Positions 20,301 to 23,300 of a DNA stretch of 64,000 nt are shown piece by piece. The position numbers were made by a program. Position 1 is the stretch's first letter, and the number at the start of each line of letters is the position of its first letter. Origin of the DNA: Escherichia coli O157:H7 (GTDB lineage Bacteria > Pseudomonadota > Gammaproteobacteria > Enterobacterales > Enterobacteriaceae); the NCBI RefSeq assembly GCF_013167455.1, contig NZ_CP038328.1; one strand, given 5' to 3'.

Positions 20301-23300
20301 ATTGTACCGATGCGTAATGCTGGCGAGCTGACGCTGGTGAAAAGTTTTGACTGGTGATCCATCCCTTCACACAACCTGGCTCTTTCTTTTTTCAGATAAG
20401 ACTGCTGGGCGATCTGCCGACGCCAGGATATAACCATTAACAAGCGTCGGCAGATTGGTCATTTCTTATTTTTCGTACTGAGAACTGTCCATTTACTCCG
20501 GCTTTCCTGGTTAAGGCAATGGTTTCTAAGCGATACGCATTATTGCAATGGTGACAGAACATTGCGGTAACACGCTTTTACCGCTACCTTAACCACACTC
20601 CATCGGTCACCTGAGGCGGAGCTTCGCCCCTTTGAAATACCTTGCTTCTTTTCGTACAACCCTGAAAGCCTCGCGCTACATGTTCAGAGCATTGGCGTTA
20701 GTGCTCTGGCTGTTGATTGCTTTTTCATCCGTTTTTTACATCGTTAATGCGTTACATCAGCGAGAATCGGAAATTCGTCAGGAATTTAATCTGAGTTCCG
20801 ATCAGGCTCAGCGCTTTATTCAACGCACCTCTGATGTGATGAAAGAGCTGAAGTACATCGCCGAAAATCGCTTATCGGCAGAAAACGGTGTGCTTTCCCC
20901 GCGTGGACGAGAAACGCAGGCGGATGTGCCTGCGTTTGAACCGCTGTTTGCCGACTCCGATTGTTCAGCAATGAGTAACACCTGGCGAGGTTCTCTGGAG
21001 TCATTGGCGTGGTTTATGCGCTACTGGCGCGATAATTTTTCTGCGGCTTACGATCTCAACCGGGTATTTTTAATCGGCAGCGATAACCTCTGCATGGCCA
21101 ATTTCGGTCTGCGTGATATGCCAGTGGAACGCGATACCGCGTTGAAAGCTTTGCATGAACGCATCAATAAATATCGAAATGCACCACAAGATGATAGCGG
21201 CAGTAACCTCTACTGGATCAGCGAAGGTCCGCGCCCTGGCGTCGGGTATTTTTACGCGTTGACGCCAGTTTATCTGGCGAACCGGTTGCAGGCGCTTTTG
21301 GGTGTCGAGCAGACCATCCGGATGGAGAACTTTTTCTTACCGGGTACGTTGCCGATGGGGGTTACCATTCTTGATGAAAATGGTCATACCCTGATTTCGC
21401 TTACCGGGCCAGAAAGCAAAATTAAGGCCGATCCTCGCTGGATGCAGGAACGCTCCTGGTTTGGCTATACGGAAGGGTTCCGGGAGCTGGTGCTGAAGAA
21501 AAATCTGCCACCCTCATCGCTCAGCATCGTGTATTCGGTGCCGGTTGATAAGGTGCTGGAACGCATTCGCATGTTGATCCTTAACGCAATTTTGCTGAAT
21601 GTGCTTGCCGGAGCTGCATTGTTTACTCTCGCGCGGATGTACGAGCGACGTATTTTCATTCCGGCGGAAAGCGACGCCCTGCGACTGGAAGAACATGAGC
21701 AGTTCAATCGCAAGATTGTCGCCTCCGCGCCAGTGGGTATCTGCATTTTGCGTACCGCTGATGGCGTCAATATTTTAAGTAACGAACTGGCGCATACCTA
21801 TCTCAATATGCTTACGCATGAGGACCGCCAACGACTGACACAAATTATCTGTGGGCAGCAGGTCAATTTTGTTGATGTCCTGACCAGCAACAATACCAAT
21901 CTGCAAATCAGCTTCGTCCATTCGCGCTATCGTAATGAAAACGTGGCCATTTGTGTGCTGGTGGATGTTTCTTCGCGCGTGAAGATGGAAGAGTCGTTGC
22001 AGGAGATGGCACAAGCAGCGGAACAGGCGAGCCAGTCAAAATCGATGTTCCTTGCCACCGTCAGTCATGAGCTGCGAACGCCGCTGTATGGCATTATCGG
22101 TAACCTGGATCTGTTGCAAACCAAAGAGTTACCGAAAGGCGTCGATCGTCTGGTGACGGCAATGAACAACTCTTCCAGCCTGTTGTTGAAAATTATCAGC
22201 GATATTCTCGATTTCTCGAAGATTGAATCGGAACAGTTGATGATCGAACCGCGTGAGTTTTCACCGCGTGAAGTGATGAACCACATCACCGCCAACTATT
22301 TACCGCTGGTGGTACGCAAGCAGTTAGGCTTGTACTGCTTTATTGAACCGGATGTGCCAGTGGCCTTAAATGGCGACCCGATGCGTTTACAGCAGGTCAT
22401 CTCCAACCTGTTGAGTAACGCCATAAAATTCACCGATACCGGCTGTATAGTTTTGCATGTCCGCGCTGATGGCGATTATCTCTCTATCCGTGTTCGCGAT
22501 ACCGGCGTGGGGATTCCGGCGAAAGAAGTGGTGCGCTTGTTTGATCCCTTCTTCCAGGTCGGAACGGGCGTACAGCGAAACTTCCAGGGGACCGGTCTGG
22601 GTCTGGCGATTTGTGAAAAACTGATCAGCATGATGGACGGCGATATCTCGGTAGATTCAGAACCGGGAATGGGCAGCCAGTTTACCGTGCGTATTCCGTT
22701 GTACGGCGCTCAGTACCCGCAGAAAAAAGGCGTGGAAGGGTTGAGTGGTAAACGCTGCTGGCTGGCGGTCCGCAATGCGTCGCTCTGTCAGTTCCTGGAA
22801 ACCAGTTTGCAGCGCAGCGGCATCGTCGTAACAACATACGAAGGGCAGGAACCGACTCCCGAAGATGTGTTAATCACTGACGAGGTAGTGAGTAAAAAAT
22901 GGCAGGGCAGAGCGGTAGTGACCTTCTGTCGTCGACATATTGGTATTCCGCTGGAGAAAGCGCCAGGGGAGTGGGTACACAGTGTGGCTGCTCCGCATGA
23001 GCTACCGGCATTGTTGGCGCGTATTTATTTGATCGAGATGGAGAGCGACGATCCTGCTAACGCTCTGCCGTCGACGGACAAAGCGGTCAGCGATAATGAC
23101 GATATGATGATTCTGGTCGTGGATGATCATCCGATTAACCGGCGTTTGCTGGCAGATCAGTTGGGATCGTTGGGCTATCAATGTAAAACCGCGAATGATG
23201 GCGTCGATGCGCTTAATGTACTTAGCAAGAATCATATTGATATCGTGCTTAGCGACGTCAACATGCCAAATATGGATGGTTACCGCTTGACACAACGCAT

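What the first reader, a model, noticed from the sequence alone, without database searches (positions are those of the whole stretch)
20358..20631. No ato operon between yfaP and rcsC; a long hairpin marks the junction
In K-12, as I recall, atoSCDAEB lies between rcsC and yfaP. Here yfaP and rcsC are only ~275 bp apart, and the gap contains a 12-bp-stem inverted repeat followed by a T-rich tract. So this is not a K-12-like chromosome at this locus, and the junction may be the ancestral state or a deletion scar.
Basis: partly seen in the sequence, partly recalled or inferred. Interest (0 to 1): 0.4.

Follow-up and report, generated by a model that had tools for sequence, protein, structure and literature searches.

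The report
Old ato-operon deletion scar with hairpin
This E. coli O157:H7 chromosome lacks the ato short-chain-fatty-acid genes, and the 274-base gap left behind is an old deletion scar holding a decayed stub of atoS, inside which a perfect hairpin has evolved that may stop upstream transcription before rcsC; the gene loss itself is common and already known.

Summary
yfaP ends at 20357, rcsC starts (TTG) at 20632, and the gap holds a perfect 12-bp inverted repeat (20412-20423 / 20444-20455, 20-nt loop) followed by a U-rich tract.

The window is 100% identical to E. coli O157:H7.

The junction is a deletion scar, not the ancestral state. Bases 20383-20450 are a 79%-identical, collinear relic of atoS codons ~28-50. 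Another genus also has rcsC next to atoSC-atoDAEB. At least two further Escherichia lineages carry independent ato deletions with different scars.

The scar is common and old. It occurs in 1537 of 5426 complete E. coli genomes and in E. whittamii.

The hairpin does not flank ato in ato-positive strains. It lies inside the atoS relic and arose there: nine substitutions across the two arms all increased complementarity, from 6/12 to 12/12.

It replaces the K-12 atoB/yfaP bidirectional terminator, which the deletion removed. It most likely acts as an atypical intrinsic terminator that shields rcsC from the yfa operon. This is inferred only: the loop is large, the E. whittamii copy is degraded, and E. 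albertii has no equivalent.

The biology is ordinary, with a neat evolutionary detail. Interest is low to moderate.

The parts
19581..20357 (+). yfaP, last gene of the yfaA-yfaT-yfaS-yfaQ-yfaP (alpha-2-macroglobulin) operon
   Evidence: ORF. 99.6% identical to K-12 YfaP. Annotated as yfaP in O157 genomes.
20358..20382 (.). Zone of the deletion junction. Identity to K-12 stops one base after the yfaP stop codon. The K-12 atoB/yfaP bidirectional terminator is missing.
   Evidence: This is the most variable part between E. coli and E. whittamii (7 of 25 mismatches plus gaps).
20383..20462 (-). Relic of the 5' end of atoS (about codons 25-55, sense on the minus strand). It reads ...MTNLPTLVNGYILASADRPAVLSEKRK..., against PTLTIGYIVETEGRSAVLSEKEKK in AtoS.
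   Evidence: 79% nucleotide identity to K-12 atoS at L001 8125-8190. The same ~78% match appears in 3718 ato-positive genomes, annotated atoS. Translation. The AtoS segment is invariant in 7 orthologues.
20412..20423 (+). Left arm of the perfect inverted repeat. Six of 12 bases differ from atoS.
20444..20455 (+). Right arm of the perfect inverted repeat. Three of 12 bases differ from atoS.
20406..20461 (+). Full RNA stem-loop: 14 + 3 pairs with bulges and a 20-nt loop.
   Evidence: dG -29.7 kcal/mol, z -4.4. The homologous 95 nt of intact atoS fold to only -17.1, against -34.7 here.
20462..20475 (+). U-rich tail UUUCUUAUUUUUCG directly after the extended stem. Together with the stem this is a candidate intrinsic terminator for the yfa operon.
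   Evidence: Sequence. T-score 4.0 and discriminant about +6 (formula recalled from memory).
20463..20552 (.). Strongly diverged, partly deleted remnant of the atoS start and promoter region. Only faintly collinear with K-12.
   Evidence: alignment. No other match in E. coli genomes.
20553..20631 (+). rcsC upstream region shared by both haplotypes (99% identical to K-12). Presumably the rcsC promoter and 5' UTR. Contains a small hairpin at 20564-20584.
   Evidence: 3.8% divergence from E. whittamii.
20632..23481 (+). rcsC (TTG start), co-directional with yfaP in this haplotype

Best explanation
The gap is the scar of an old deletion that removed atoS (from about codon 55) through atoB, together with the atoB/yfaP bidirectional terminator. 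The deletion fused the yfaP stop codon to a stub of atoS. The stub then decayed: it acquired stop codons, a ~60-nt internal deletion and clustered substitutions. Within the stub, nine substitutions turned two half-complementary stretches of former coding sequence into a perfect 12-bp palindrome. This happened either through one or two replication template-switch events or through selection. On the yfaP-sense strand the hairpin is followed by a U-rich tract. It therefore most likely works as an atypical, probably partial, rho-independent terminator. It would stop yfa-operon transcripts before they run into rcsC, which the deletion placed directly downstream in the same orientation. rcsC keeps its own conserved 79-nt upstream region. 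What is shown: the scar origin, its age and frequency, the directed creation of the palindrome, and the loss of the original terminator. What is inferred: the terminator activity and the template-switch mechanism.
For: Scar origin:
- K-12 has rcsC-atoSCDAEB-yfaP.
- The window is 100% identical to K-12 up to one base past the yfaP stop and 99% identical from 20553 onwards. Between these points lies a collinear 79% match to atoS codons ~28-50.
- The same match falls inside annotated atoS in 3718 genomes.
- The relic peptide departs at 7 or more residues from a segment that is invariant in AtoS of at least 4 genera, so the changes came after inactivation.
- A non-Escherichia contig has ompC-rcsDB-rcsC-atoSC-atoDAEB-gyrA.
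- Independent scars exist in Escherichia sp. MOD1-EC7003 (90 atoS codons, the atoB 3' end and the original terminator) and in E. albertii B156 (62 atoS codons).

Age and frequency:
- The contiguous junction is present in 1537 of 5426 complete E. coli genomes.
- The same relic is present in E. whittamii. Its 12.8% divergence matches other intergenic regions, at 13.6-14.6%.

Hairpin creation:
- The atoS arms pair at 6 of 12 positions and the relic arms at 12 of 12.
- All 6 changed left-arm bases are exactly the previously unpaired ones, and each changed to the complementary base. The random expectation is about 1.5e-6.

Terminator reading:
- Stem dG -29.7, z -4.4.
- A tail of 10 of 12 U begins directly after the extended stem.
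- The hairpin lies 54 nt after the yfaP stop, on the sense strand only.
- The K-12 terminator ACACCCGATA...TATCGGGTGTTTTT is absent.
- The 81-nt hairpin-plus-tail segment is identical in 1385 of 1541 genomes, and one variant keeps pairing as G.U.
Against: - The 20-nt loop is far larger than in canonical intrinsic terminators, which typically have 3-8 nt (established knowledge).
- The U-tract is interrupted, and it starts 7 nt after the perfect stem if the weak outer pairs do not form; the discriminant then falls to -44.
- In E. whittamii three derived, non-compensated substitutions hit the stem and the tail is poorer, giving dG -20 and a negative score.
- No compensatory double substitution was seen in any variant.
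- The independent E. albertii scar has no terminator-like site between yfaP and rcsC, so a terminator is not obligatory.
- The near-identity within E. coli is what low species diversity gives anyway.
- No transcript data were available.
Confidence: 0.6

Rival explanations
1. The locus is the same deletion scar, but the hairpin is a functionless by-product. A replication template switch (quasi-palindrome correction) in neutral relic DNA produced a perfect palindrome, and the neighbouring T-rich tract is just decayed AT-rich sequence around the former atoS start codon.
For: The substitutions are tightly clustered and all point toward complementarity, which is the signature described for template-switch mutations (PMC8794818, PMC10710096). 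The E. whittamii copy is eroding in the stem without compensation. The E. albertii scar has no terminator. The loop is atypically long. The yfa operon upstream is itself decaying in this strain, with internal stops in yfaQ and yfaS.
Against: A -30 kcal/mol hairpin followed by 10 of 12 U on the sense strand of a tandem gene pair is likely to terminate at least partly, whatever its origin. The deletion removed the only other terminator. The relic core is more conserved between species (3.8%) than its flanks (16-28%).
Confidence: 0.33
2. The conserved relic core (20383-20461) is retained because it carries a sequence-specific element acting on rcsC or on the former atoS 5' region, such as a protein-binding site, an upstream promoter (a TATAAC sits in the loop, pointing toward rcsC) or an antisense RNA. 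On this reading the palindrome is part of that element or incidental to it.
For: Between E. coli and E. whittamii the loop and the 28 nt 5' of the stem are invariant, and only stem bases changed. The matching part of intact atoS (codons ~8-52) shows unusually conserved third codon positions across genera: 0.67-0.73 against 0.39-0.43, and a 93% window against a 77% mean. That segment has 1 mismatch in 166 nt even in the E. albertii pseudogene, against 12% in rcsC. Three independent deletions all spare at least 55 codons of atoS.
Against: There is no sigma-70 consensus promoter, no Rfam family, and no unusual or conserved RNA fold on either strand of the atoS 5' region. The relic has itself lost about 60 nt and a fifth of the bases of that segment. 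The counts are small and the windows were chosen after the fact.
Confidence: 0.1
3. The short junction is the ancestral Escherichia state, and atoSCDAEB was inserted between yfaP and rcsC in the K-12-like lineages.
For: The junction is shared by 28% of E. coli genomes and by E. whittamii. ato can travel on the LAA pathogenicity island (PMC5539235).
Against: The gap contains a truncated, out-of-context piece of atoS coding sequence. The rcsC-ato adjacency exists in another genus that lacks the yfa operon. The K-12-type yfaP terminator is present in E. albertii and MOD1-EC7003.
Confidence: 0.03
4. The hairpin is a copy of a dispersed palindromic element (REP/BIME, MITE end or integration site) that mediated the deletion.
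For: It is a palindrome next to a rearrangement. REP elements do occur at the MOD1-EC7003 scar.
Against: It is single-copy: the median is 1 place per genome, found only in scar genomes. Both arms are positionally homologous to atoS coding sequence. There is no match in ato-positive genomes beyond atoS itself.
Confidence: 0.02

Closest known systems
K-12-specific segments ('K-islands') in K-12 versus O157:H7 comparisons; ato as an accessory operon of E. coli
   Same: The whole atoSCDAEB cluster is present in K-12 and absent at the same site in O157:H7. ato prevalence is known to differ by more than 50% between phylogroups A and B1 (PMC9602453). My recollection of the K-island concept is not checked here.
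   Different: What is added here: the empty site is not clean but holds a decayed atoS stub. It is shared with E. whittamii. At least two other Escherichia lineages (MOD1-EC7003, E. albertii B156) carry independent deletion scars between atoS and yfaP, and two single E. coli strains carry larger deletions at the locus.
The atoB/yfaP bidirectional rho-independent terminator of K-12 (ACACCCGATA-8 nt-TATCGGGTGT, T-run on both strands)
   Same: It occupies the same functional position: a stem-loop plus U-tract just after the yfaP stop on the yfaP-sense strand.
   Different: The two sequences are unrelated. The K-12 hairpin has a 10-bp stem, an 8-nt loop and an uninterrupted T5, and it works in both directions. 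The hairpin here has a 12-17-bp stem, a 20-nt loop and an interrupted U-tract, is one-directional, and is derived from atoS coding sequence.
Hairpins created by replication template switching / quasi-palindrome correction (Monttinen & Loytynoja, PMC8794818; de novo miRNA hairpins, PMC10710096)
   Same: A cluster of substitutions makes one stretch the exact reverse complement of a neighbouring stretch. This turned 6 of 12 into 12 of 12 pairs.
   Different: The ancestral sequence is inferred from orthologous atoS rather than observed. Both arms changed, so at least two steps are needed. Stepwise selection cannot be excluded.

Membership tests
Gene-deletion scar / pseudogene relic | Flanking genes syntenic with genomes that carry the missing genes | tested here: met
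   yfaP and rcsC flank atoSCDAEB in K-12. The flanks are 99-100% identical.
Gene-deletion scar / pseudogene relic | Residual, collinear, non-functional fragment of a lost gene at the junction | tested here: met
   20383-20450 is 79% identical to atoS codons ~28-50, in the correct orientation and order relative to rcsC. The reading frame is truncated and interrupted.
Gene-deletion scar / pseudogene relic | Outgroups carry the intact arrangement | tested here: met
   rcsC-atoSC-atoDAEB is present in another genus. ato is present in 3925 of 5426 E. coli genomes.
Rho-independent (intrinsic) terminator | Stable G+C-rich stem | tested here: met
   A 12-bp perfect stem with 8 G-C pairs, extendable to 17 pairs. 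dG -29.7, z -4.4.
Rho-independent (intrinsic) terminator | Short loop (typically 3-8 nt) | tested here: not met
   The loop is 20 nt with no internal pairing. The consensus scan therefore does not list it.
Rho-independent (intrinsic) terminator | U-tract immediately 3' of the stem | tested here: inconclusive
   UUUCUUAUUUUU directly follows the extended stem but lies 7 nt after the perfect stem. The discriminant is +5.8 in the first case and -44 in the second (formula from memory).
Rho-independent (intrinsic) terminator | Located after a stop codon on the sense strand of the upstream gene | tested here: met
   It lies 54 nt after the yfaP stop. The U-tract is on the + strand only.
Rho-independent (intrinsic) terminator | Transcripts end there | not testable with these tools
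   No transcript 3'-end data were available.
Rho-independent (intrinsic) terminator | Pairing maintained in relatives (compensatory change) | tested here: not met
   E. whittamii has 3 uncompensated stem changes. E. coli variants show one G.U-preserving change and one pair-breaking change. There are no double changes.
REP/BIME or other dispersed palindromic element | Many copies per genome | tested here: not met
   One place per genome, found only in scar genomes.
Template-switch (quasi-palindrome correction) mutation | Clustered substitutions that convert a segment into the reverse complement of a nearby segment | tested here: met
   All 6 left-arm and all 3 right-arm changes relative to atoS create complementarity. 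No already-paired position lost its pairing; one paired position changed on both sides (T-A to A-T) and stayed paired.
Template-switch (quasi-palindrome correction) mutation | Single-event origin, with observed ancestor and descendant | not testable with these tools
   No intermediate haplotype was found. E. whittamii already carries the derived arms.
Known structured RNA family (Rfam) | Match to a covariance model | tested here: not met
   No hit at E <= 1 in 20200-20800 or in the K-12 atoS 5' region.

The most novel reading that the evidence does not exclude
After the ato deletion removed the only terminator between the yfa operon and rcsC, a replication template switch inside the dead atoS stub created a new hairpin. 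Together with the adjacent T-rich relic of the atoS start region, this hairpin became a de novo intrinsic terminator insulating the Rcs sensor kinase gene. That would be a dated, population-wide example, shared by E. coli and E. whittamii, of the birth of a regulatory element from former coding sequence. A related reading is that the atoS 5' segment, unusually conserved at silent sites and spared by three independent deletions, hides an undescribed nucleotide-level element upstream of rcsC.
Probability: 0.25. Interest if true: 0.5.

Novelty: new member of a known kind. Interest (0 to 1): 0.3.

Why it matters
The finding matters mainly for annotation and strain comparison. It explains why O157:H7, many B1-type STEC and 28% of complete E. 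coli genomes have yfaP directly upstream of rcsC. It shows that the 41-aa 'hypothetical protein' called in this gap in some genomes is a dead atoS fragment. It also shows that ato has been lost repeatedly in Escherichia.

If the hairpin is a working terminator, the two haplotypes differ in how rcsC is shielded from upstream transcription. That could affect Rcs envelope-stress signalling in EHEC compared with K-12. The locus would then be a tidy natural example of a terminator arising from coding sequence by palindrome perfection.

Tried and rejected
- **Rfam scans:** scans of the gap and of the K-12 atoS 5' region found nothing.
- **Promoter scans:** the sigma-70 scan found no promoter-like site in the gap, in K-12 or in E. 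albertii.
- **Metagenome scan:** an exact scan for the loop sequence gave only two E. coli-type contigs and no deeper lineages, so covariation could not be tested.
- **Relic peptide search:** A chimeric AtoS/relic query returned only truncated AtoS fragments and relic ORFs, and no intact AtoS with the relic's residues.
- **BS-04 junction:** this 199-nt variant, with a shorter stem and a T8 run, looked like a third scar type. It is a singleton among 5426 genomes and was not used.
- **Relic as a small protein:** rejected. E. whittamii has a stop codon within the ORF (TCG to TAG at 20419), and the peptide varies.
- **Structured RNA in the atoS 5' segment:** rejected. Fold z-scores were +0.9 and +0.3, and the consensus folds were weak.
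- **Dispersed repeat:** rejected because the hairpin is single-copy.
- **Same event as E. albertii:** the idea that the O157-type scar and the E. albertii scar come from one event was rejected. Their yfaP-side junctions differ, and the E. albertii stub is nearly identical to K-12 atoS.
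Full report
**1. What is in the sequence**

The window carries yfaP at 19581-20357 and rcsC at 20632-23481. Both are on the + strand, and rcsC starts with TTG. The gap is 274 nt.

The gap holds a perfect 12-bp inverted repeat, ATCTGCCGACGC (20412-20423) and GCGTCGGCAGAT (20444-20455), separated by 20 nt.
- As RNA, the + strand folds into an interrupted 17-pair stem at 20406-20461. Its dG is -29.7 kcal/mol and z is -4.4, and none of 200 shuffles folded as well.
- The stem is followed directly by UUUCUUAUUUUUCG.
- Shuffles of the whole 64-kb window give 0.08 such repeats on average, so the repeat is not chance.

**2. Where the window comes from, and the K-12 order**

The junction is 100% identical to E. 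coli O157:H7 chromosomes. There the annotated order is yfaA-yfaT-(alpha-2-macroglobulin)-yfaQ-yfaP-rcsC-rcsB-rcsD-ompC.

In K-12 MG1655 the order is rcsD, rcsB, rcsC(-), atoS, atoC, atoD, atoA, atoE, atoB, yfaP(-), yfaQ(-). About 7.4 kb present in K-12 is missing here, and no ato gene occurs anywhere in the window.

**3. Scar or ancestral state**

Alignment to K-12 gives three zones:
- On the yfaP side, identity is 100% up to one base past the stop codon and then ends. The K-12 atoB/yfaP bidirectional terminator (ACACCCGATA...TATCGGGTGTTTTT) is absent.
- On the rcsC side, 99% identity begins at 20553, which is 79 nt upstream of the rcsC start and 87 nt upstream of the atoS start in K-12.
- The 195 nt in between are not foreign. 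Bases 20383-20450 align without rearrangement to atoS codons ~28-50 at 79% identity. The remainder is faintly collinear with the atoS start and the atoS-rcsC spacer, minus about 60 nt.

The same 68-nt match falls inside annotated atoS in 3718 ato-positive genomes.

On the minus strand the relic reads PTLVNGYILASADRPAVLSEKRK. AtoS has PTL[T/S]IGYIVETEGRSAVLSEKEKK, a segment invariant in seven AtoS sequences from Escherichia and at least three other lineages. The relic's differences therefore arose after the gene died. They were not inherited from a divergent functional orthologue.

Outgroup evidence points the same way:
- A non-Escherichia metagenomic contig has ompC-rcsD-rcsB-rcsC(-)-atoS-atoC-atoDAEB-gyrA.
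- The K-12-type sequence after the yfaP stop is present in E. albertii NBRC 107761 and in Escherichia sp. MOD1-EC7003.

The junction is a deletion scar.

**4. How common, how old, how often**

Among 5426 complete E. coli genomes:
- The contiguous yfaP-rcsC junction is in 1537 (28%). These include O157:H7, O111, O104:H4 and O169:H41.
- atoDA is in 3925 (72%).
- The two counts sum to more than 5426, so at least 36 genomes have both. This fits ato being carried on the LAA pathogenicity island (PMC5539235, PMC9729726), but I did not verify it genome by genome.
- The literature already treats ato as accessory, with prevalence differing by more than 50% between phylogroups A and B1 (PMC9602453).

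The same scar, with the same relic, is present in E. whittamii (273-nt gap).
- Its divergence from the E. coli copy is 12.8%, similar to neighbouring intergenic regions at 13.6-14.6%.
- Four-fold degenerate sites in yfaP and rcsC differ by 31-41%.
- This fits vertical descent since before the two species split, although I cannot exclude transfer between them.

Other lineages lost ato independently:
- Escherichia sp. MOD1-EC7003 keeps 90 codons of atoS, the 3' end of atoB, REP elements and the original terminator.
- E. albertii B156 keeps 62 codons of atoS, fused 13 nt after the yfaP stop.
- Single E. coli strains carry atoD'-yfaQ and atoE'-napG deletions.

**5. Origin of the hairpin**

The hairpin is not a junction marker and is not found next to ato in ato-positive strains. 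The 81-nt hairpin-plus-tail segment occurs only in the ~1541 scar genomes, once per genome. That also excludes a dispersed repeat.

Both arms are positionally homologous to atoS coding sequence.
- In atoS the two stretches pair at 6 of 12 positions. In the relic they pair at 12 of 12.
- Nine bases changed, six in the left arm and three in the right. Every change created or kept a Watson-Crick pair.
- The six left-arm changes are exactly the six positions that did not pair with the present right arm. The random expectation for that is about 1.5e-6, with the caveat that the test was framed after seeing the data.
- The homologous 95 nt of intact atoS fold to -17.1 kcal/mol, against -34.7 here.

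The palindrome was therefore made in the relic. It arose either by templated mutation (replication template switching or quasi-palindrome correction; PMC8794818, PMC10710096) or by stepwise selection for pairing. The E. whittamii copy already has the derived arms, plus three later uncompensated changes. The palindrome thus predates the common ancestor of the two relics.

**6. What it most likely does**

The deletion placed rcsC directly downstream of yfaP in the same orientation, and it removed the only terminator between them.

Points in favour of a terminator:
- The new hairpin lies 54 nt after the yfaP stop.
- It has a U-rich tail on that strand only.
- It scores marginally positive on a d'Aubenton-Carafa-type discriminant (+5.8, against +1.7 for my slice of the K-12 terminator). 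The formula is recalled from memory.

I therefore favour an atypical, probably leaky, intrinsic terminator that insulates rcsC. rcsC keeps its own conserved 79-nt upstream region.

Points against:
- The loop is 20 nt.
- The U-tract is interrupted.
- The E. whittamii copy is degraded (-20 kcal/mol, negative score).
- No compensatory substitutions were seen.
- The independent E. albertii scar has no terminator-like site at all.

I put about 0.45 on real terminator activity and about 0.95 on the scar interpretation.

**7. Unexplained features**

Divergence pattern:
- Identity to K-12 switches abruptly from 99-100% in the flanks to 79% in the relic core, and to near-unalignable at 20462-20552.
- Yet the E. 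coli and E. whittamii relics are close to each other, and the relic core 20383-20461 differs at only 3 of 79 positions. All three are stem bases.
- Either the scar is much older than that species split and persists as a recombining presence/absence polymorphism, or much of the divergence came in a few complex events.

Silent-site conservation in atoS:
- The corresponding part of intact atoS (codons ~8-52) is unusually conserved at silent sites across genera. Third-position identity is 0.67-0.73 against 0.39-0.43 in the flanking codons. One 60-nt window is 93% identical against a 77% mean.
- This segment is nearly identical between K-12 and the E. albertii pseudogene, with 1 mismatch in 166 nt against 12% in rcsC.
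- I found no Rfam family, no consensus promoter and no unusual fold to explain this.

**8. Verdict**

The either/or is resolved in favour of an old, common deletion scar. The absence of ato from O157-type chromosomes is known biology. The new details are the atoS stub, the recurrent independent losses, and the palindrome built from former coding sequence that probably substitutes for the lost terminator. This is a minor but tidy evolutionary case, of low to moderate interest.

Noticed in passing
window 17330 (yfaS, 13412-17926) and 18719-18721 (yfaQ, 17927-19576): This strain has a G-to-T change relative to O157:H7 Z1835 that creates a premature stop at codon 1307 of the alpha-2-macroglobulin gene yfaS. 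yfaQ has an internal stop at codon 265 in both strains. The yfa operon upstream of the hairpin is therefore decaying in this lineage.
   Followed up: partly
L001 8065-8200 (K-12 atoS codons ~8-52); L026, L029, L030, L031, L027: The 5' end of atoS is unusually conserved at synonymous sites across at least 4 genera. It is almost identical between E. coli and a truncated E. albertii pseudogene (1 mismatch in 166 nt, against 12% in adjacent rcsC). Three independent ato deletions all spare this part. No RNA family, promoter consensus or stable fold explains it.
   Followed up: partly
L027 (E. albertii B156), gap between yfaP and rcsC: This is an independent ato deletion scar of 386 nt, with 62 atoS codons fused 13 nt after the yfaP stop. 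A 7-bp inverted repeat, GGGGTTA/TAACCCC, sits exactly at the junction. No terminator-like site lies between yfaP and rcsC.
   Followed up: partly
L009 10785-11100 (Escherichia sp. MOD1-EC7003): Another independent scar. REP-like elements, the K-12-type terminator, about 150 nt of the atoB 3' end and 90 codons of atoS remain between yfaP and rcsC.
   Followed up: partly
L003 (E. coli TUM1223) and hit H125 (E. coli NT1N28): These are strain-specific larger deletions at the locus. In TUM1223 a truncated atoE abuts napG, so rcsC, rcsB, rcsD and ompC are missing from this site. In NT1N28 a partial atoD abuts yfaQ.
   Followed up: no
L005 2990-3188 (E. coli BS-04): A singleton junction variant of 199 nt, with extra deletions, a shorter bulged stem and a T8 run. 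It occurs in 1 of 5426 genomes and could be a real variant or an assembly problem.
   Followed up: partly
window 20367-20462 (- strand); L004 568-693: Some RefSeq genomes annotate a 41-aa 'hypothetical protein' in this gap. It is the dead atoS fragment.
   Followed up: yes
E. coli genome collection: Scar genomes (1537) plus atoDA-positive genomes (3925) exceed the 5426 total, so at least 36 genomes have the empty site and ato elsewhere. The likely location is the LAA pathogenicity island, which carries atoSC-atoDAEB (PMC5539235). This was not verified genome by genome.
   Followed up: no
window 61665-61720: A dense cluster of direct and inverted copies of TTTAGTTATACG, with several perfect 12-bp inverted repeats within 56 nt. 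It was seen in the window-wide palindrome count and not examined.
   Followed up: no
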